Part shown: one piece after another, positions 7,954 to 32,591 of the stretch
Position numbering within the stretch: the stretch's first letter is position 1
Layout of the letters: every line of letters starts with the position of its first letter
Origin: a virus
Length of the DNA: 43,472 bases
Direction: 5' to 3' (one strand)
Virus genome (UHGV): UHGV-0252305
The notes under the pieces: generated by a model
Database searches by the model: none
What the model was told of the DNA's origin: nothing
Seen by the model: the letters and a program-made list of their open reading frames with translations, nothing else
Position numbers and translations under genes: made by a program

Positions 7954-9374
7954 GTAAGTTTCAAAGACGCGAGTACCAGAAGCTCATGACCTCGTTCATG
8001 CTGCAACACCCGCGCTGTAATATCTGGTGCGGAATGGGGGGAGGTAAAACCTCCTCCACTATGTGGGTGCTCAACCGCCTGTTCCGCAACGGGCAGCTTA
8101 CGGAAGAGGACCGCGTGTTAATCCTTGCCCCGTTACGTGTTGCGTCCGGTACGTGGCCCGCTGAACAAGAGAAATGGCAATTCCCTTGTCTGCGTGTCGT
8201 AGATGCAACTGGTTCGGAGAAGCGCCGCATCGCAGCGCTGGAGTCAGATGCTAACGTGGTGTGCACTAACTACGAAGTTATCGAGTGGCTAATTGACTAC
8301 TACGGCAAAGACGACTGGCCTTTTACGGTTATCGTTGCCGATGAAAGCACGAAGCTTAAATCGTTCCGCAGCCGTTCGGGTGGTAGCAAGCGGGCAAAGG
8401 CGCTCAGCAAGGTTGCGTTCGGAAAGGTTAAGCGTTTCATTAACCTGACTGGCACGCCGTCGCCAAACGGCCTCAAGGACTTGTGGGGGCAGAACTGGTT
8501 TATCGACGCTGGCGAGCGACTCGGTTCATCGTACACAGCATTCACCGACCGCTGGTTTAACTCGGTACAGAAAGGTAAATCGGCTATGGCCCGCGAGTAT
8601 CATGCACGACCGGGTGCGGATAATGAGATTCATCAGAAGATGAAAGACATCAGCCTGACCATAGACCCTGCCGAGTGGTTTGGTTGTGAAGCGCCTGTTA
8701 TCGTACCGGTGGAAATAGACCTGCCGAAGAAAGCGCGTCAGGCGTACATAGATATGGAGGAGAAGTTATTCGCAGAACTGGAGAGCGGGGAAGTTGAAGC
8801 GGCTAACGCTGCGGCGAAGACCTCAAAGTGCTTGCAGATTGCATCTGGTGCCGTGTATGTGTCAGGGCCGGATGGCGAAGCGACCAAAGACTGGGAGAAA
8901 GTGCACGACACGAAACTGGATGCGCTCGAGTCGATTGTTGAGGAGTTGCAGGGTGCGCCGTTGCTGGTAGCCTATCAGTTTAAACACGAACTGGAGCGTA
9001 TCCTTAAGCGATTCCCACAGGCACAGGCGTTCGCCAAAGGCGCTAGGGGGAACAAGCAGATGGAAGCGTGGAACCGTGGGGAAATCGAGATTTTATGCGT
9101 GCATCCTGCGTCAGCCGGGCATGGTTTGAATTTACAGGACGGGGGTCATCATCTGGCGTTCATCTCGCAAGGCTGGAACCTTGAGCACTATTTGCAGGTT
9201 GTTGAGCGCATAGGCCCAGTCCGCCAGAAACAGGCGGGTCACGAGCGCCCGGTGTTCCTTTATCACATCGTTGCTAAAGACACTCTGGACGAGGTTGTCG
9301 CCGCTCGTACAGACGAGAAAAGGTCTGTACAGGATGAACTACTTAATTATATGAAACGTAGGAGTAAGAAATGA
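7950..9374 (+). CDS. SNF2/DEAD-like superfamily 2 helicase
   Basis: Walker A GMGGGKTS; DExx box VIVADEST; C-terminal helicase domain; 474 aa. Confidence 0.85.
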   Translation: MSKFQRREYQKLMTSFMLQHPRCNIWCGMGGGKTSSTMWVLNRLFRNGQLTEEDRVLILAPLRVASGTWPAEQEKWQFPCLRVVDATGSEKRRIAALESDANVVCTNYEVIEWLIDYYGKDDWPFTVIVADESTKLKSFRSRSGGSKRAKALSKVAFGKVKRFINLTGTPSPNGLKDLWGQNWFIDAGERLGSSYTAFTDRWFNSVQKGKSAMAREYHARPGADNEIHQKMKDISLTIDPAEWFGCEAPVIVPVEIDLPKKARQAYIDMEEKLFAELESGEVEAANAAAKTSKCLQIASGAVYVSGPDGEATKDWEKVHDTKLDALESIVEELQGAPLLVAYQFKHELERILKRFPQAQAFAKGARGNKQMEAWNRGEIEILCVHPASAGHGLNLQDGGHHLAFISQGWNLEHYLQVVERIGPVRQKQAGHERPVFLYHIVAKDTLDEVVAARTDEKRSVQDELLNYMKRRSKK

Positions 9375-9886
9375 TGGATTTCGAAGAGTTTCTACTTAAG
9401 GCGCATCTGCTGTCACGAGGTTTTGACGCAGACCGTCTCCAGGTAGTCTTAGCCCCTGGCGTTGCTACATTCTACTTGTGGGGTTTTGACGGCAGGCTAC
9501 GAGGATACCAGCATTACAAGCCGCATGCTGAAAAGAACTGTAAAAACCCTAAAGACGCGCGGTACTTTACCCGAACAACAAGGCCGTGTTTATGGGGACT
9601 TGAGTATTTGCCAAGTAGCGGGGCGGTATTTGTTACCGAAAGCATATTTAAAGCTGTTGCTTTGATGAATTGCGGGTTTAATGCAGTTAGCGCATTGGGG
9701 TCGAACATACCAGCTGACTTACGGCAGCAAATGTCACTTTTGCCGTATGAATGGGTGTGCGCCGGTGACAGTGATAAAGCGGGCTTAAAGTTCAGCAAAA
9801 CATTCACCAGAGGATTTGTATCTAACGACCTCGATGAACTTTGTGAAGAAGAAATAACGTATCTTGCGAGGAAATTTACCAGATGA
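9371..9886 (+). CDS. Toprim-domain protein (primase-like catalytic core)
   Basis: Conserved Glu (VFVTESIFKAV) and DxD (CAGDSDKAG) consistent with Toprim fold; ATGA coupling to helicase. Confidence 0.6.
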   Translation: MMDFEEFLLKAHLLSRGFDADRLQVVLAPGVATFYLWGFDGRLRGYQHYKPHAEKNCKNPKDARYFTRTTRPCLWGLEYLPSSGAVFVTESIFKAVALMNCGFNAVSALGSNIPADLRQQMSLLPYEWVCAGDSDKAGLKFSKTFTRGFVSNDLDELCEEEITYLARKFTR

Positions 9887-15323: not shown

Positions 15324-15850
15324 GTGGTCAACAGGCCGCGTAATAACGGTATCTCTTTAGGTGTCATCAGTATACCAGTGCTTCGTTGGTTCAGCATAGG
15401 TGTACCGACATCCGCAGAGAATTCGCCTTTCTCTTGGTTGATAGCCTGTAACTCGTACACGACTGGGCCGTCAGCTGGATAAGACAGGTCGGTACTGACG
15501 TAACGACGGAAGACGAACTTCGGCAACTCGGTGTTACTCATCGGTATTTTATCCATCTCATCGTCCAGTTGATTGAGAATATCCGGTAAAGTAAACGTGG
15601 TCGTCTGGTCCATATCACTGTTATTAGCGGCCCCCGACGCCTCCATCGGGGTGGGTTCGAACGTGATAGTTTCGCCTGTTTCCAGTGTTGCCGTAAGTTC
15701 CTGTAACCCGCGCACAAGATAGTACGTCTTCGACAACAACGGATGGCTGATTTGCAATGTGATGTAATCCATCTCGCCGTCGGGGTTTGAGGCCAGCTTA
15801 CGGCGATAGGCGGCTTCTACTGATTCCTGACTCATTGCATCGGGTCCCAA
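15320..15850 (-). CDS. Minor tail protein
   Basis: Position between tape measure and tail tip genes; overlapping stop/start. Confidence 0.5.
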   Translation of the reverse strand: MGPDAMSQESVEAAYRRKLASNPDGEMDYITLQISHPLLSKTYYLVRGLQELTATLETGETITFEPTPMEASGAANNSDMDQTTTFTLPDILNQLDDEMDKIPMSNTELPKFVFRRYVSTDLSYPADGPVVYELQAINQEKGEFSADVGTPMLNQRSTGILMTPKEIPLLRGLLTT

Positions 15851-16332
15851 ATTCGTGGAAACGTTGATTGTGCGGTTCCGTAGGCTTTAAGGAAACCCCC
15901 CAGCCCGTCGCCATAGCAACCATACAAATCCGGCAGATTGTTAACAAGACACTGGTTCTCAAGGTCCTGAAACGGCGATTTCTCAGCGGTTGCCGTGAAA
16001 GTAATCGTCCAGTTAATGCCATCTTCGGTAGATTCCGCGATGGTTGACGTGATGGTTACCTGGTAGTCCTCAATACCCATGCCGAAGTCATGCGCCATCC
16101 AGAAACTTGACGCACCGCCATCGACTTTTTCGAGGAACGACAGAAACGCCTGCCGCCCTAGCGCCGATGTAATCAGGGTTACACTTATCGGGAACACGTC
16201 GTAATATGTGTCACGGCCCTGACGCACCCCGCCACCGGCTAAATCGACCCTCCAGACGTTGTTACGTCGGGTCATCGAGTAGCCTTTCGATACAATTGGC
16301 TTTAAACTTGCTGGAAATTTCAAAGAAGACAT
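15832..16332 (-). CDS. Minor tail protein (distal tail-like)
   Basis: 166 aa downstream of tape measure on - strand; SD TAGGAG. Confidence 0.5.
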   Translation of the reverse strand: MSSLKFPASLKPIVSKGYSMTRRNNVWRVDLAGGGVRQGRDTYYDVFPISVTLITSALGRQAFLSFLEKVDGGASSFWMAHDFGMGIEDYQVTITSTIAESTEDGINWTITFTATAEKSPFQDLENQCLVNNLPDLYGCYGDGLGGFLKAYGTAQSTFPRIWDPMQ

Positions 16333-16367
16333 GGCAAGATACTCCTATTAGTTTAGGAGATACTAAC

Positions 16368-17018
16368 ATGATGCCAACCGAAAAAGTAGCCAAGAGCATG
16401 TGGCTGCGTGCGAATTATCCTGCGAACAAAAGCAGCAAAACTAAGCGTGCAACTATATGCGATTTTGGCATAAATGACGCCGATTATGTGGTTAGCCCCA
16501 AGATAAACGGCAACCGTGAGACGTGTCTGGCGTACGCTACATGGCGAGGGATGATCCAACGTTGCGTGGGCGCCGAGTATAAAAACAAAAGGCCTGCGTA
16601 CAGGGATGTAACTGTGTGGCATGGGTGGCAAAGGTTTATGTCCTTCCGTAGATGGTGGCTTTGTAATTATGTGGAGGGATGGGAGCTAGATAAGGATATA
16701 TTCTCTGGTATTAATAAGGTATACAGCCCTACCACTTGCATCTTCATCCCTAAATGGCTGAATGTTTTCCTAAAGGAAAAGAAAAATAGGGGAACACCTA
16801 CGGGTGTTTTTTATGAAGAATCTAGAGGTAAATTTAAAGCCTCAGTGAGCTATGATAAAAAAACTATTAATCTAGGACGTTTTGAAACTCAGGAAGAAGC
16901 GCTAGATGCTTACATTGCTGAAAAGATAAGGGTGGCGGAATCAAGAAGATGTGAGATAGAGGCGATAAGGGAAGGTATGTTCGACCGCGTTATCGCCTTG
17001 ATAAAAGAGGGTCGTTAG
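16368..17018 (+). CDS. Homing-endonuclease-like DNA-binding protein with C-terminal AP2 domain
   Basis: C-terminal GVFYEESRGKFKASVSYDKKTINLGRFETQEEALDAYIAEKIR fits AP2 fold; N-terminal YATWRGMIQRC-type motif seen in phage HNH/AP2 proteins; ATG at 16368 with SD TAGGAG (track start 16206 rejected). Confidence 0.6.
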   Translation: MMPTEKVAKSMWLRANYPANKSSKTKRATICDFGINDADYVVSPKINGNRETCLAYATWRGMIQRCVGAEYKNKRPAYRDVTVWHGWQRFMSFRRWWLCNYVEGWELDKDIFSGINKVYSPTTCIFIPKWLNVFLKEKKNRGTPTGVFYEESRGKFKASVSYDKKTINLGRFETQEEALDAYIAEKIRVAESRRCEIEAIREGMFDRVIALIKEGR

Positions 17019-17036
17019 CCCAGAGGCTGGAGAAAT

Positions 17037-17057
17037 AAGGCCCTTTCGGGCCTTTAT
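17037..17057. terminator. Bidirectional terminator between HNH/AP2 gene and tape measure gene
   Basis: Stem aaggccc/gggcctt, loop tttc; T-rich on both sides. Confidence 0.6.
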
Positions 17058-17061
17058 GTTA

Positions 17062-19401
17062 TTACTTAAAGCCAGGTGCGTTTCTTGTGGCTTTGCGGGC
17101 CTTGCTAATCTTGCTGTTACTGTTCTGCAAAGATGCAGCCACCTGCTCCTCGATGATGATACGCAAACGGCCTTCATCATCTTGCTCAGTGGACACGTTG
17201 CCGATTTGAGAACTCGTGTTGTTTACGATAGTAACATTAGACGGCCCGGAAGAAGACCCGTTTTGCCCCATAATTTCTTTCATCTGCTGTGCGGTGCGTA
17301 CACGTGACGCACCAGCGGGCATGATAACTTCTGGTTTACCGCGTTCGGCGATGGTTGAAGCCTGCCCTGCGGATAACTGTCCGCCCTGTTCACGTGCGGA
17401 CCTGATAGCGGAAATCTGCGCCATACCCGCCCCAACGGCAGCAGCGGCAGCTACAGGAGCCAGGAACGGGCCAACTACAGGGATAGCCGCTGTTGACTTA
17501 TACGCCTCAATAGCCGCGGAGTACGTGGCTATAGTGGCCTGCACGATAGCGAATGCCTTGTACGCGCCAGAAGCCTCGCCCAAAGCCGAACCGATGTTTG
17601 AGGCCATGTTACCGAAGGCGGTTGCCGTTGCGTCGGCACGCTTGGTTGCGTATTGCTCATTGATGGCGTTAAGCGCGGCCTGATACTGCTTCTCACTAAT
17701 AAGACCCTGCTCACGGTACTTATCGGCTACCGCCAGTTTCTGCTGTTCCTGGATGTCGAGAAGCTCAAGCTCAGTAGCGTTCTGGCCCATAATCTGAGCC
17801 ATGAAGTCGTCGCCTTTCTGCTTTTTCTCCTGCCGTTCTTTCTCGCGCTTATCCAATTCTTCCTGACGTGCGGTGTCCGCCTCCAGCATAATCTGCGTCT
17901 TGGCGTTTTCGTACTGCTGGTCGCTAAGAAGCTGGTTGCTGTAAAACTCTTGTAGCTTGGTTAACTGCTGTTCCTGGTTGGCTTCTATTTTCTGGAATAC
18001 GTCATCATTGAGATGAATTGACTGATAGTAGAAATCCTCCGCGGCTTTCTTCTGGCGCTCGAACGCATCCGCTGCTTTCTTAGCGGCTTTTGCACCCGCG
18101 CTATCATCTTCAGATCCGCCGCCGGTACCAGTTACCTTAAATTTACTAAGCCCTTCTTCCTTAGCGGCTTCTTTGTCGATGTCATACGCTGCGCGTTTAA
18201 GCGCGACGATATTTTGCTGAGCCTCCACCTGTTCGCGGAAACTTTTACGTGTCAGGTCCGCAACGTCGCGCTGAGTATCCAGTGCCATCCCCAGCTGGAA
18301 GTTAATATTTTTTGCTACGTCTACGGATTCCCCTGGTGTGAAGGCGGCCTTAACCAGCCGACCGGCATCCTGCGCCCCTTTAACCATATCCTCAAAGAAG
18401 CGCTCCATCGCGGTAAATTCTTCCGCGATGAAATCGAGCGCATCGGCGGCTGATTCCGCTATGGTTGTCGCCGTTTGTTCGCCGCTATCCGTGATACTTT
18501 TGCTACTAAAATCCCAAAGCTCATTTAGCCCGTTTATCGCATCACCCACGAAACCAAATGCCGCGTCGAATGACATCTCTATTGCGCTTCCTACTTCCGA
18601 CGCGATGTCACCCCACATACGCATCTCTGCGGCAAGTTCACCGGATGCAACCTGTGCGTTAAGTTCCTGGATTAAATCATCGATGTATCGGATAGGTTCG
18701 GCGAGCGCACCAACATCAAGACTGGTAGCCAGTGTCATTTTTAACTGCGACCATGAGTCGCTGGCACTGGCGATGGCCCCGTTAAGTGTGTTGGCCTGGT
18801 CCGCCATAGCCCCCGCGAAGTTTACGTTACCGATGTTGAGCAGGTATTGCTCGATGTCGGCAGCGCTCTTCTTAACTACCGTAGTAGTACCCTGGAATGT
18901 AAATTCAACATCGTTTTTGTTCTGTTTGGCCTTGATACCAAATTCTTTAAGGCGCTCAAATTCAAAAGTACTAGCGTCTGCAACCGCCTCAATCATCTGA
19001 TTCAGGTCTTTACCCATAGCAGCGGCGGTGTTTCCGTAGGAACGCAACGCTTCTTCTGACGGTGTAAGACCAAGCGCCACAAGTTTACGGAATCCCTCTA
19101 CCGCCTGTTCAAGGCCATACGGAGTGTCGCGCGCGAAGTCTTGCAGGATGCTTAACGCCTGTCTTGCACCCTGCGTGCTTCCGGTTAGTGTTTTCAGGCT
19201 GGCGGACATCTTGTCCAGTTGCCGTTGGGATTCTACCAGTTCCTGTGCGGCCTTGTAAGCGGTAGCGGCGACGATGGAAGCGAGGCCCGCTACCGCAGCT
19301 CCGGCTACCTTTGCAGACTTGGAAAGGTTATCAAGACGGTCTGATGTAGCTTTCGCGCCTTGCTCTGATACTTTTACAACTAAACTAGCTACATCAGCCA
19401 T
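17062..19401 (-). CDS. Tail tape measure protein
   Basis: 779 aa, Ala/Gln/Glu-rich coiled-coil, follows tail chaperone pair. Confidence 0.85.
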   Translation of the reverse strand: MADVASLVVKVSEQGAKATSDRLDNLSKSAKVAGAAVAGLASIVAATAYKAAQELVESQRQLDKMSASLKTLTGSTQGARQALSILQDFARDTPYGLEQAVEGFRKLVALGLTPSEEALRSYGNTAAAMGKDLNQMIEAVADASTFEFERLKEFGIKAKQNKNDVEFTFQGTTTVVKKSAADIEQYLLNIGNVNFAGAMADQANTLNGAIASASDSWSQLKMTLATSLDVGALAEPIRYIDDLIQELNAQVASGELAAEMRMWGDIASEVGSAIEMSFDAAFGFVGDAINGLNELWDFSSKSITDSGEQTATTIAESAADALDFIAEEFTAMERFFEDMVKGAQDAGRLVKAAFTPGESVDVAKNINFQLGMALDTQRDVADLTRKSFREQVEAQQNIVALKRAAYDIDKEAAKEEGLSKFKVTGTGGGSEDDSAGAKAAKKAADAFERQKKAAEDFYYQSIHLNDDVFQKIEANQEQQLTKLQEFYSNQLLSDQQYENAKTQIMLEADTARQEELDKREKERQEKKQKGDDFMAQIMGQNATELELLDIQEQQKLAVADKYREQGLISEKQYQAALNAINEQYATKRADATATAFGNMASNIGSALGEASGAYKAFAIVQATIATYSAAIEAYKSTAAIPVVGPFLAPVAAAAAVGAGMAQISAIRSAREQGGQLSAGQASTIAERGKPEVIMPAGASRVRTAQQMKEIMGQNGSSSGPSNVTIVNNTSSQIGNVSTEQDDEGRLRIIIEEQVAASLQNSNSKISKARKATRNAPGFK

Positions 19402-31937: not shown

Positions 31938-32591
31938 ATGAAACTGCAAACATTAGAGTTCCCTTATGGAGAAATCACTTTTGACCGTGAAAACTTTATT
32001 AACGTAAACGAGCTGGTTGACCAGATGAACCGTTGGCGTTTAGACAACGGCATGGGGGCCAGAGAGCTTCGCCAGGTCATGGCAACGGATGGCTTCAAGA
32101 TTTTCAAGGAGGAATGCGAAAAACAACTCGGAATCGAGAATGCCATAAGGGCGACGAAAGGCCGAAACGGTCGCACCTTTGCATGTCTCCATCTGGCAGT
32201 ATATATTGCTGAGCAATACAGCGCCTATTTCCATTTCCTCGTTATCGACCGCTTTATCACACAACGGCAGGTAGAACTACGAAACATTGGCGCGGTGAGC
32301 TTTGTCGAGCTTAACGCTGCCGTTAGTCGAATGATCGAGCGCACGGAGGGAAGAATTGGCCACAGTGGACACTTCATACAGGTGGCTAAAGCGGTAAAGG
32401 AATCCGTAGATATCCGCGACGTAACGGGTTTCGATACATGGGACTCTCAGGATGCGAAGACCAATCAGTTGCGAAGTGACATCCAGAAAGCTCTGGTGAC
32501 GCTTCTTGACATGGAGGCCGTTAATACATGGGGTGAACTGAAAGAGGCGATACCTCGGGTTGTGCGTAAATGTGCGGCTAATATACGTTAA
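31938..32591 (+). CDS. KilA-N domain protein
   Basis: KGRNGRTFACLHLAVYIAEQYSAYFHFLVIDRF fits KilA-N signature; own promoter with palindromic operator; bidirectional terminator downstream. Confidence 0.6.
   Translation: MKLQTLEFPYGEITFDRENFINVNELVDQMNRWRLDNGMGARELRQVMATDGFKIFKEECEKQLGIENAIRATKGRNGRTFACLHLAVYIAEQYSAYFHFLVIDRFITQRQVELRNIGAVSFVELNAAVSRMIERTEGRIGHSGHFIQVAKAVKESVDIRDVTGFDTWDSQDAKTNQLRSDIQKALVTLLDMEAVNTWGELKEAIPRVVRKCAANIR

What the first reader, a model, noticed from the sequence alone, without database searches (positions are those of the whole stretch)
16333..17057. AP2-domain homing-endonuclease-like gene on the opposite strand inside the tail module, sharing a palindromic RBS with the divergent tail gene
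The gene is inserted between the tape measure gene and the minor tail genes, which is typical of free-standing homing endonuclease genes. Its Shine-Dalgarno (TAGGAG at 16352..16357) and that of the divergent tail gene on the - strand (complement of CTCCTA at 16343..16348) form an inverted repeat TCCTAttagttTAGGA, so the two start regions can pair in RNA or be co-occupied.
Basis: partly seen in the sequence, partly recalled or inferred. Interest (0 to 1): 0.4.

Follow-up and report, generated by a model that had tools for sequence, protein, structure and literature searches.

The report
Mobile homing-endonuclease gene in phage tail operon
A selfish, mobile endonuclease-type gene of a known phage family (IPA-HNH with an AP2 DNA-binding domain) sits between the tape-measure gene and the first minor-tail gene of this E. 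coli Kagunavirus; it is an ordinary though very clean example, and the 'palindromic ribosome-binding site' is most likely a side effect of two genes starting back to back.

Summary
A 216-aa ORF (16368-17018, + strand) lies in a 729-bp insert (16333-17061) placed exactly between the tape-measure (TMP) stop codon and the minor-tail start codon. In about 71 related Kagunavirus records these two codons overlap (TAATG). Only 7 records (5 phages) carry this cassette. There it is 97-100% identical, while the flanks are 79-91% identical. Two other phages carry an unrelated T5orf172/CapR endonuclease gene at the same site, and one phage carries a 45-bp scar of it.

The protein belongs to the 'IPA-HNH' homing-endonuclease family (BLASTP 6e-22 to ICP1 gp209) and has a confirmed C-terminal AP2 domain. 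Its N-domain has an invariant D-K-D where canonical HNH enzymes have D-H. Pfam and profile-profile comparison do not detect it as HNH, and the fold search gives only a weak PacI match.

All HNH-bearing alleles, including four lineages whose proteins are 56-67% identical, recode codons 2-10 of the minor-tail gene. This is the probable target and immunity signature.

The inverted repeat CTCCTA/TAGGAG (16342-16347 / 16354-16359) exists and can fold. It follows from two head-to-head Shine-Dalgarno sites and is not kept as a perfect palindrome in diverged cassettes.

Verdict: a new member of a known kind, of modest interest.

The parts
16368..17018 (+). Free-standing homing-endonuclease-type gene, 216 aa, of the IPA-HNH family with a C-terminal AP2 domain
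   Evidence: ORF and translation. phrog_953 'HNH endonuclease', E 9e-64. BLASTP 6e-22 to ICP1 gp209. Annotated 'HNH endonuclease' in TH07 and SHAK7693.
16449..16796 (+). N-terminal 'DKD' domain (about residues 28-143), the putative nuclease domain. Invariant residues are D108-K109-D110 (nt 16689-16697) and N132 (nt 16761-16763).
   Evidence: Invariant columns in a 37-sequence alignment. All 268 sampled family members carry x[L/I/M]DKD and none has DH. The domain defines 20,990 clusters at 50% identity. There is no Pfam HNH_3 hit. hhalign against the HNH_3 N-region gives E 0.71. The best fold match is PacI HNH at E 2.4.
16800..16943 (+). AP2/ERF-type DNA-binding domain (residues 145-192: three strands plus a helix)
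16333..17061 (.). 729-bp insert that is absent from empty alleles, where the TMP stop and the minor-tail start overlap as TAATG
   Evidence: Alignments with P AB-2017 and 22664BS2.
16299..16332 (-). Recoded first 11 codons of the minor-tail gene (ATG TCT TCT TTG AAA TTT CCA GCA AGT TTA AAG). This block is strictly linked to the HNH cassette. It is the probable recognition/immunity region and part of the mobile unit.
   Evidence: 16 of 33 nt differ from empty alleles (p<=1e-5). The block is 100% identical in the four other HNH+ Kagunaviruses compared with the window. The same variant occurs in four diverged HNH+ lineages but not in their empty relative VLCpiS11a. It never occurs without the insert.
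17062..17087 (-). Last codons of the TMP gene in the 'inserted-type' variant (…GCA CCT GGC TTT AAG TAA); right edge of the conserved block
   Evidence: The link to the insert is not exclusive, because the empty alleles ZCEC5 and EcoPhCCP1 also encode Ala here.
16342..16359 (.). Inverted repeat CTCCTA-ttagtt-TAGGAG. The left arm is the complement of the minor-tail SD and the right arm is the SD of the endonuclease gene.
16312..16340 (+). Weak sigma-70-like promoter candidate for the endonuclease gene: TGGAAA-17-CAAGAT, 7 of 12 matches. It is homologous in position to TGGAAA/TTGGAA-17/18-TATAAT (10 of 12) in diverged cassettes. The predicted transcript start lies just 3' of the left arm.
   Evidence: The tool's thresholds did not flag it in the window itself.
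17037..17054 (+). GC-rich hairpin followed by a T-rich tail: terminator-like element for the endonuclease gene, just before the TMP stop codon
15832..16332 (-). First minor-tail/virion structural gene (166 aa). The insert uncouples its translation from that of the TMP gene.
   Evidence: phrog_384; annotations in relatives.
17062..19401 (-). Tape-measure protein (TMP) gene
   Evidence: phrog_1538, E 3e-207.

Best explanation
This is a free-standing homing endonuclease gene (HEG) cassette of the IPA-HNH family, resident in a Kagunavirus (Guernseyvirinae).

Inferred mechanism: during co-infection the 216-aa protein uses its AP2 domain, and probably parts of the N-domain, to recognise the uninterrupted TMP-stop/minor-tail-start junction of HEG-less relatives. 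The key bases are most likely those just after the minor-tail ATG (ATG AGY GAY TTA…). Its N-terminal 'DKD' domain then cuts or nicks nearby. Repair from the HEG-bearing genome copies a roughly 790-bp unit (about 16299-17087). That unit holds the gene, its own weak promoter, its SD and its terminator, a new strong SD for the now-uncoupled minor-tail gene, and the recoded tail codons 2-10 that make the carrier allele uncleavable.

Shown here: the insertion polymorphism, the mosaic conservation, the linkage of the recoded block to the insert, family membership and the AP2 domain.

Inferred, not shown: cleavage, the target bases, promoter use, and catalysis by Lys109/Asp108/Asp110/Asn132 in place of the HNH His.

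The SD/anti-SD inverted repeat is best read as the geometric consequence of packing two divergent translation-initiation regions into 35 bp. Any regulatory effect, such as damping translation from read-through transcripts, would be secondary.
For: - Empty versus filled sites: 7 records carry the cassette and about 71 have an intact junction. The closest relative, 22664BS2, is empty.
- Cassette versus flank identity: recoded block 100%, insert 97-100%, flanks 79-91%. The window's right flank is 98% identical to an empty phage.
- The same site is used by a T5orf172/MUG113+CapR HEG in fFiEco02 and DUEC01. UTI89UKE1 has a 45-bp scar made of that cassette's two ends.
- Diverged homologues (56-67% aa identity) sit at the same site in the same orientation in four other lineages. 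One of these is 94% identical in its flanks to the empty Klebsiella phage VLCpiS11a.
- All 9 HNH alleles share the recoded tail 5' end, with switches between codon families (Ser AGY->TCT, Leu CTN->TTR, Arg CGN->AGR). No HEG-less allele has it (statistics).
- Family: BLASTP 6e-22 to ICP1 gp209, a type member of IPA-HNH (PMC10448857). The phage distribution matches that paper: Rheinheimera Barba phages, Pseudomonas KIL phages and ICP1, with several copies per genome.
- The ORF is intact and carries every invariant family residue.
- A promoter-like element sits at the same position in three diverged cassettes.
Against: - No nuclease activity has been shown for any IPA-HNH protein, here or in the literature searched.
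- The canonical catalytic His is replaced by an invariant Lys.
- Pfam HNH_3 never matches.
- The N-domain alone shows no profile-profile similarity to canonical HNH_3 (E 0.71).
- The fold search gives only non-significant HNH hits: PacI at E 2.4 and colicin E9 at E 8.9.
- The recoded block could be donor-lineage sequence that hitch-hikes with the promoter rather than a selected immunity change.
- The promoter in the window itself is weak (7 of 12) and was not flagged by the scan.
Confidence: 0.78

Rival explanations
1. The protein is a sequence-specific DNA-binding protein with no nuclease activity, for example a transcriptional regulator or anti-defence repressor built on AP2, like the CasPRs. 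On this reading it is a 'moron' cassette that spread among Kagunaviruses by ordinary homologous recombination and positive selection, not by homing.
For: - There is no catalytic His and no HNH signal by Pfam or hhalign.
- AP2 proteins of phages can act purely as repressors (bioRxiv 10.64898/2026.02.23.707548).
- The only confident structural or sequence match to known proteins is the AP2 domain.
Against: - The D-K-D and N132 residues are invariant in 268 of 268 members, at the end of a beta strand and in the following helix, the layout of a beta-beta-alpha metal finger.
- The gene occurs in many copies per genome in several phage lineages.
- The insertion lies exactly between two overlapping codons of essential genes, and the adjacent codons are recoded by codon-family switches in every carrier.
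- An unrelated GIY-YIG-type HEG targets the same junction.
- A second IPA-HNH copy is inserted head to head with another tail gene in L012.
- All of these are hallmarks of homing elements.
Confidence: 0.12
2. The palindromic SD pair is a functional RNA switch; this reading can coexist with the homing explanation. In the tail-operon mRNA, and in any + strand read-through RNA, the CUCCUA arm sequesters the UAGGAG SD. This would throttle minor-tail and endonuclease translation. Only transcripts that start between the arms, from the cassette's own promoter, would translate the endonuclease. From my own knowledge, this resembles the hairpin-gated translation of T4 I-TevI.
For: - The hairpin folds at -8.1 and -8.8 kcal/mol, better than shuffles (z -2.4 and -3.0).
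- In five diverged cassettes 87% of the stem cells pair. Only 5 of 500 shuffles reach that, and slid-register controls give about 50%.
- The promoter-like -10 box in L011, L012 and L015 places the predicted transcript start just 3' of the left arm.
Against: - Two SDs on opposite strands are complementary by definition, and equal SD-to-ATG spacing puts them in register, so pairing and apparent covariation are expected without selection on structure.
- The perfect 6-bp palindrome is confined to the Kagunavirus version. Diverged cassettes fold weakly (-3.4 to -6.8 kcal/mol, mostly z > -1.7).
- A second IPA-HNH cassette in L012 has the same head-to-head layout with a TATAAT box, but its two SDs are 27 nt apart and form no tight hairpin.
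- Only five sequences were available, and the tool's documentation warns of 5-25% false positives at this level.
Confidence: 0.2

Closest known systems
IPA-HNH homing endonuclease genes (ICP1 gp59, gp115-116, gp209; Barth, Dunham & Seed 2023, PMC10448857)
   Same: - 34% identity and E 6e-22 to gp209 across the N-domain and the AP2 domain, including the LDKD motif.
- About 200 aa, with an N-terminal domain that Pfam HNH_3 does not see and a C-terminal AP2 domain.
- Free-standing and located next to essential (structural) genes.
- The same phage distribution: Barbaviruses, KIL-like Pseudomonas phages and ICP1.
   Different: - The host lineage is a Kagunavirus. The parts of that paper read here name other lineages (ICP1, Barbaviruses, Flaumdraviruses), not Kagunaviruses.
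- This copy is antisense to the operon it interrupts.
- Here the empty, filled, alternative-HEG and scar alleles and the recoded target can all be seen at one site.
Canonical HNH_3 + AP2 homing endonucleases (Magnani et al. 2004 class; for example fEg-Eco19 gp26)
   Same: The same two-part architecture and a homologous AP2 domain (hhalign probability 98%, E 4e-15 over 80 columns). Both types occur in Kagunavirus genomes.
   Different: - gp26 has EIDHIDGNPLNNRIENLR and Pfam HNH_3 at 6e-23. The window protein has ELDKDIFSGINKVYSPTTC with no His and no HNH_3 hit.
- The N-domains alone are not detectably similar (E 0.71).
- The window has no gp26 homologue.
T5orf172/MUG113 (GIY-YIG superfamily) + CapR homing endonuclease genes
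   Same: In fFiEco02 and DUEC01 this HEG occupies the identical TMP/minor-tail junction. It has the same antisense orientation, supplies a replacement SD for the tail gene, and has a GC hairpin at its 3' end.
   Different: - The protein is unrelated.
- It recodes codon 2 of the tail gene and the TMP 3' end, not tail codons 2-10.
- This suggests a different recognition half-site.
Free-standing HEGs of T4-like phages (seg and mob genes; I-TevI translational control). Comparison from my own knowledge.
   Same: Intergenic insertion between conserved essential genes, target-site polymorphism that protects the carrier, co-conversion of flanks, and possible SD sequestration in read-through transcripts.
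   Different: Different nuclease families. The T4 examples are mostly co-oriented with their neighbours and use phage late or middle promoters. Here the gene is antisense and apparently relies on a sigma-70-like promoter embedded in the host gene's 5' end.

Membership tests
IPA-HNH homing endonuclease family (Barth et al. 2023) | Sequence homology to the ICP1 type members (gp59, gp115-116, gp209) | tested here: met
   tblastn hit in ICP1 that maps to the gene 'previously called GP209'. BLASTP gives E 6e-22 and 34% identity over residues 56-212.
IPA-HNH homing endonuclease family (Barth et al. 2023) | N-terminal domain too divergent for the Pfam HNH_3 profile, combined with a C-terminal AP2 domain | tested here: met
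   No HNH_3 hit in the window protein or in any of 37 relatives; AP2 found in 20 of the 37. AP2 confirmed by profile and by fold.
IPA-HNH homing endonuclease family (Barth et al. 2023) | Site-specific endonuclease activity | not testable with these tools
   No biochemical data for any member were found.
HNH / beta-beta-alpha-metal nuclease superfamily (Pfam HNH_3) | Catalytic His at the end of strand 1 (the D-H motif) | tested here: not met
   The position holds an invariant Lys (D108-K109-D110). 268 of 268 family members have DKD and none has DH.
HNH / beta-beta-alpha-metal nuclease superfamily (Pfam HNH_3) | Detectable sequence or profile similarity of the nuclease domain to HNH_3 | tested here: not met
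   Pfam gives no hit. A profile search of PDB sequences gives none. hhalign of the N-domain against the N-region of 36 canonical HNH_3-AP2 proteins gives E 0.71. Barth et al. report HHsearch hits, which I could not reproduce with shallow alignments.
HNH / beta-beta-alpha-metal nuclease superfamily (Pfam HNH_3) | Beta-beta-alpha fold with a metal-binding Asn or His in the helix | tested here: inconclusive
   The model shows strand 105-108, strands 117-119 and 125-128, then helix 129-135 carrying the invariant N132. The N-domain Foldseek search returned only 7 hits. Three are HNH nucleases, but none is significant: PacI at E 2.4 (TMq 0.47) and colicin E9 at E 8.9.
AP2/ERF DNA-binding domain (PF00847) | Three-stranded sheet packed on a helix, with the YRG/RAYD-like sequence signature | tested here: met
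   Pfam E 2e-4, below the gathering score. The family profile finds WRI1 at 3.9e-7. The model matches ERF1 1gcc with TMt 0.71 and rmsd 2.2 Å. hhalign to canonical HNH-AP2 proteins gives probability 98%.
Free-standing homing endonuclease gene (functional class) | Presence/absence polymorphism at one precise site among close relatives, with the cassette more conserved than its flanks | tested here: met
Free-standing homing endonuclease gene (functional class) | Carrier allele differs from empty alleles in the sequence next to the insertion (self-immunity) | tested here: met
   Tail codons 2-10 are recoded in all 9 carriers across 5 lineages and in no non-carrier, with p<=1e-5. That this confers immunity is inference.
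Free-standing homing endonuclease gene (functional class) | Cleavage of the empty allele and super-Mendelian inheritance in co-infection | not testable with these tools
   This needs enzyme assays and phage crosses.

The most novel reading that the evidence does not exclude
The N-terminal 'DKD' domain may not be a decayed HNH. It could be a distinct, biochemically uncharacterised catalytic domain: either a beta-beta-alpha-type nuclease that uses Lys109 with Asp108, Asp110 and Asn132 in place of the canonical His, or a different fold altogether. The domain defines one of the most abundant phage mobile-gene families, about 21,000 clusters at 50% identity. This locus would then be a ready-made test system. 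It offers natural empty, filled, rival-HEG and scar alleles and a target candidate of about 33 bp. Its compact head-to-head promoter/SD/anti-SD module may also gate expression of the endonuclease.
Probability: 0.3. Interest if true: 0.55.

Novelty: new member of a known kind. Interest (0 to 1): 0.3.

Why it matters
In itself this is a routine selfish element. Relatives already annotate it as 'HNH endonuclease', and its family was named in 2023.

Its value is as an unusually clean natural experiment. One junction between two essential, translationally coupled tail genes shows four allelic states: empty, IPA-HNH, T5orf172-CapR and scar. The IPA-HNH cassette is sharply bounded and nearly identical in phages from four continents. 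A recoded block of 10 codons points to the recognition site.

That makes three open points directly testable:
- whether IPA-HNH proteins, which lack the HNH histidine, are really nucleases, and how they cut;
- how two unrelated HEGs compete for one site;
- how a phage tolerates an antisense gene and a hairpin in the middle of its tail operon.

For genome annotation, the case shows that 'HNH endonuclease' labels on this family rest on weak evidence.

Tried and rejected
- **Known RNA element.** I looked for one under the palindrome or the insert. Rfam at E<=1 found nothing.
- **Linking the N-domain to HNH.** None of these gave a significant link:
  - Pfam on 37 members and NCBIfam (no hit).
  - PDB sequence profiles (only AP2 and chance hits such as deoxycytidine kinase).
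  - Foldseek with the full model (only AP2) and with an N-domain-only model (PacI at E 2.4).
  - hhalign against a purpose-built canonical HNH_3-AP2 alignment. It aligned only AP2 plus the tail of the motif, and nothing when AP2 was removed.
- **Intermediate sequences.** The exhaustive representative search was meant to find members with D-H. It lists only the top 150 of 20,990 hits, and all of those have DKD.
- **A second + strand 217-aa ORF** (31938-32591) looked like a possible second copy. It is an amidase (phrog_6095), unrelated to this gene.
- **- strand promoter-like hit** inside the gene's 5' end (16377-16350). I considered it as a restart promoter for the tail genes and rejected it. 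It is one hit against 2.2 expected, and its predicted transcript start falls inside the tail SD.
- **The GGCCC hairpin** shared by the HNH and T5orf172 cassettes. I considered it as proof that one cassette replaced the other. The few bases next to the TMP stop are similar, but the hairpins could be independent, so this is left as a suggestion.
- **TMP 3' recoding as HEG-linked.** Rejected as exclusive, because the empty alleles ZCEC5 and EcoPhCCP1 share part of it.
Full report
**What the window is**

The region matches Kagunavirus genomes (Guernseyvirinae, K1G-like E. coli siphophages). The closest record is vB_EcoS-22664BS2, at 97.4% identity over 85% of an 18-kb query. The finding lies in the - strand tail block. 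The TMP gene is 17062-19401 (phrog_1538, E 3e-207). The first minor-tail/virion structural gene is 15832-16332 (phrog_384). Further minor-tail and tail genes follow downstream.

**Checking the observation**

The + strand ORF runs from ATG 16368 to TAG 17018 and encodes 216 aa. It is the only + strand gene between 10051 and 20175.

The inverted repeat is real: CTCCTA 16342-16347, loop ttagtt, TAGGAG 16354-16359. The right arm is the SD of the ORF, 8 nt before the ATG. The left arm is the complement of the SD of the minor-tail gene, 9 nt before its ATG at 16332.

The pattern occurs once in the window, against 0.18 expected by chance, and 17 of 100 shuffles have at least one. As a motif it is not significant. 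Two consensus SDs placed head to head form such a repeat automatically. The 38-nt intergenic RNA folds at -8.1 kcal/mol (+ strand) and -8.8 kcal/mol (- strand), with z -2.4 and -3.0.

**It is an insertion**

In phage P AB-2017, in 22664BS2 and in about 71 records overall, the TMP stop and the minor-tail start overlap as TAATG. In the window, 729 bp (16333-17061) separate them.

Only 7 records carry this insert. They represent 5 phages, from the Philippines, Egypt, China, Australia and one other source.

| Segment compared with the window | Identity to the four other HNH+ carriers compared |
|---|---|
| Recoded block 16299-16332 | 100% |
| Insert 16333-17061 | 97-100% |
| Flanking 450-510 bp | 79-91% |

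The window's right flank is 98% identical to the empty phage 22664BS2. The conserved unit is therefore about 16299-17087 and sits in at least two different TMP and minor-tail backgrounds. That is the signature of a cassette moving horizontally.

**A hot spot with several allelic states**

fFiEco02 and DUEC01 carry a 905-bp insert at the same junction, in the same antisense orientation. It encodes a 248-aa protein with MUG113/T5orf172 (GIY-YIG superfamily) and CapR domains. This is the other ICP1-type HEG family described by Barth et al. 2023.

UTI89UKE1 has only 45 bp between the two genes. Those 45 bp consist of the left and right ends of that T5orf172 cassette, so they are a deletion scar.

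**What the protein is**

- Pfam finds only AP2 (E 2e-4, below the cut-off). PHROGs places the protein in phrog_953 'HNH endonuclease' (9e-64).
- A 37-sequence family alignment used as a profile hits plant AP2 structures, with WRI1 at 3.9e-7.
- The AlphaFold model (pLDDT 95) superposes on ERF1 with TMt 0.71. The AP2 domain is therefore confirmed.
- tblastn finds relatives in 1,407 phage records. They are enriched in Vibrio, Rheinheimera 'Barba' phages, Pseudomonas KIL phages and ICP1, often with several copies per genome.
- The ICP1 hit is gp209, at BLASTP 6e-22. gp209 is a type member of the 'IPA-HNH' HEGs defined by Barth, Dunham & Seed 2023 (PMC10448857).

Membership in that family is met.

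**Is the N-domain an HNH nuclease?**

This is the weak point.

- The family has an invariant D108-K109-D110 and an invariant N132, and no histidine at the HNH position. All 268 members sampled have DKD.
- No member hits Pfam HNH_3, and there is no NCBIfam hit.
- For comparison, I built an alignment of canonical HNH_3+AP2 proteins around fEg-Eco19 gp26 (EIDHIDGNPLNNRIENLR; Pfam HNH_3 6e-23).
- hhalign aligns the two families through AP2 and a little upstream of it (probability 98%). The N-domains alone show nothing (E 0.71).
- An N-domain-only model (pLDDT 85) gives just 7 PDB hits. The best is the HNH enzyme PacI (E 2.4, TMq 0.47), and colicin E9 also appears (E 8.9). None is significant.
- The predicted topology is a strand ending in DKD, two short strands, then a helix carrying N132. 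This is compatible with a beta-beta-alpha metal finger.
- By eye, the spacing from the conserved Gly to the final Asn equals that in gp26. That is my reading, not a test.
- The domain is extremely common: 20,990 clusters at 50% identity with E<=1e-3.

Nuclease activity is thus inferred from the behaviour of the element, not from recognisable catalytic motifs.

**The recoded flank**

All five Kagunavirus carriers start the minor-tail gene with ATG TCT TCT TTG AAA TTT CCA GCA AGT TTA. Empty, scar and T5orf172 alleles start with ATG AGC/GGT/ACT GAY TTA TAT TTC CCA CGT AGC CTT. That is 16 of 33 nt different against a background divergence of 8-16% (p<=1e-5). The recoded variant never occurs without the insert.

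More diverged homologues of the gene (56-67% aa identity) were found on metagenomic contigs L011, L012, L014 and L015. They sit at the same junction in the same orientation. All have the same tail-gene variant, ATG TCT TCT YTN AGA TTT CCA RCM AGT TTR.

L011's flanks are 94% identical to Klebsiella phage VLCpiS11a, which has an empty site and the 'empty-type' codons ATG AGT GAT TTA CGA TTT CCA GCC TCT CTG. The TMP 3' ends of L011 and VLCpiS11a are identical.

Many of the changes are switches between six-fold codon families (Ser AGY to TCT, Leu CTN to TTR, Arg CGN to AGR) that keep the amino acid. I read this block as the endonuclease's recognition region, rendered uncleavable in carriers. That is inference. 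It could also simply be donor sequence that travels with the cassette.

**Expression signals and the palindrome**

In L011, L012 and L015 a sigma-70-like promoter (TGGAAA/TTGGAA, 17-18 nt spacer, TATAAT; 10 of 12 matches) lies at the same place on the + strand. Its -35 box is inside tail codons 6-8. Its -10 box is between the tail ATG and the complement of the tail SD.

The predicted transcript start falls just after the left arm, so the gene's own transcript would lack the anti-SD arm. The window has a degraded version, TGGAAA(16312-16317)-17-CAAGAT(16335-16340), with 7 of 12 matches. The scan did not flag it.

A GC hairpin with a T-rich tail (17037-17054) ends the gene.

The head-to-head SD layout is kept in all diverged cassettes. 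The stem pairs in 87% of cells, which only 5 of 500 shuffles reach, and slid registers give about 50%. But the arms differ between cassettes, and their hairpins are weak (-3.4 to -6.8 kcal/mol). Symmetric SD-to-ATG spacing explains the register.

A second IPA-HNH gene in L012 (E 3.7e-44 to the family) is also head to head with another tail gene and has a TATAAT box in the spacer. Its two SDs are 27 nt apart and form no tight hairpin.

I conclude that the compact head-to-head module is a design feature of these antisense cassettes. The module comprises a replacement SD for the uncoupled tail gene, the endonuclease gene's own promoter and its own SD. The perfect palindrome is most likely incidental. 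A regulatory role is possible; I put it at about 0.2.

**Comparison and verdict**

This is a new member, in a new host lineage, of a known family, and relatives already annotate it as an HNH endonuclease. I found no paper that describes this locus. Nuclease activity, the target and the role of Lys109 remain to be shown experimentally.

Noticed in passing
L003:3667-4413 (fFiEco02) and L009:2678-3424 (DUEC01); equivalent to window 16333-17061: An unrelated HEG (248 aa; Pfam MUG113/T5orf172 plus CapR) occupies exactly the same TMP/minor-tail junction in the same antisense orientation. It changes tail codon 2 and the TMP 3' end, but not tail codons 3-10. Two HEG families may therefore compete for this one site.
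   Followed up: partly
L010:2536-2580 (UTI89UKE1): A 45-bp spacer lies between the TMP stop and the minor-tail start. It is made of the left and right ends of the T5orf172 cassette, so it is a deletion scar and evidence for HEG loss at this site.
   Followed up: partly
L012:2133-2759 (also in L013): A second IPA-HNH gene (208 aa, CLDKD motif, hhalign E 3.7e-44) is inserted antisense between two other minor-tail genes of the same contig. It is again head to head with the downstream tail gene and has a TATAAT box in the 44-bp spacer.
   Followed up: partly
window 15832-16332; compare L004:2569-3966, L007:547-1947, L008:562-1947, L009:1147-2544: The first minor-tail gene is 166 aa here, but about 461-466 aa in 22664BS2, XY1, SHAK7693 and DUEC01. 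The first roughly 160 aa are shared and are followed by a C-terminal extension of about 300 aa. This length polymorphism is independent of the HEG state.
   Followed up: no
window 16666-16693 (- strand); L012:4326-4299; L015:3326-3299: A sigma-70-like element on the - strand (TTATCA/TTGTCT-16-CATAAT/TATAAT, 9-10 of 12 matches) sits at the same codon position inside the endonuclease gene in L012 and L015, over the conserved NYVEGWELDK codons. A weaker version is present in the window (TTATCT-16-CATAAT). It could restart tail-gene transcription, or it could be a by-product of the conserved coding sequence.
   Followed up: no
L018 (ZCEC5) and L019 (EcoPhCCP1), the empty junctions: Some empty alleles have unusual junction sequences: tail codons 2-5 are AGC GAT TAT TTT or ACT GAC TTA TTT, and the TMP gene ends GCG CCG GGG TTC AAR. 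The junction seems more polymorphic than its surroundings, as expected if HEG pressure selects escape variants.
   Followed up: no
L008 (OR594180.1, vB_EcoM_SHAK7693): The GenBank record is classified as Autographiviridae; Kayfunavirus and named 'EcoM'. Its tail region is collinear with, and about 88-98% identical to, Kagunavirus siphophages, so the record's taxonomy is probably wrong.
   Followed up: no
L017:11334-11840 (fEg-Eco19 gp26); absent from the window: fEg-Eco19 also carries a canonical HNH_3+AP2 endonuclease gene near the capsid genes. The window has no homologue of it, nor of the T5orf172 gene (tblastn). HEG content therefore differs between otherwise similar Kagunaviruses.
   Followed up: partly
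window 9371-9886 (+): A 171-aa ORF directly after the helicase gene has a weak Toprim_2 match (E 4e-4, just below the cut-off). fEg-Eco19 annotates an 'HNH homing endonuclease' after its helicase gene, but tblastn with that protein found no match in the window.
   Followed up: no
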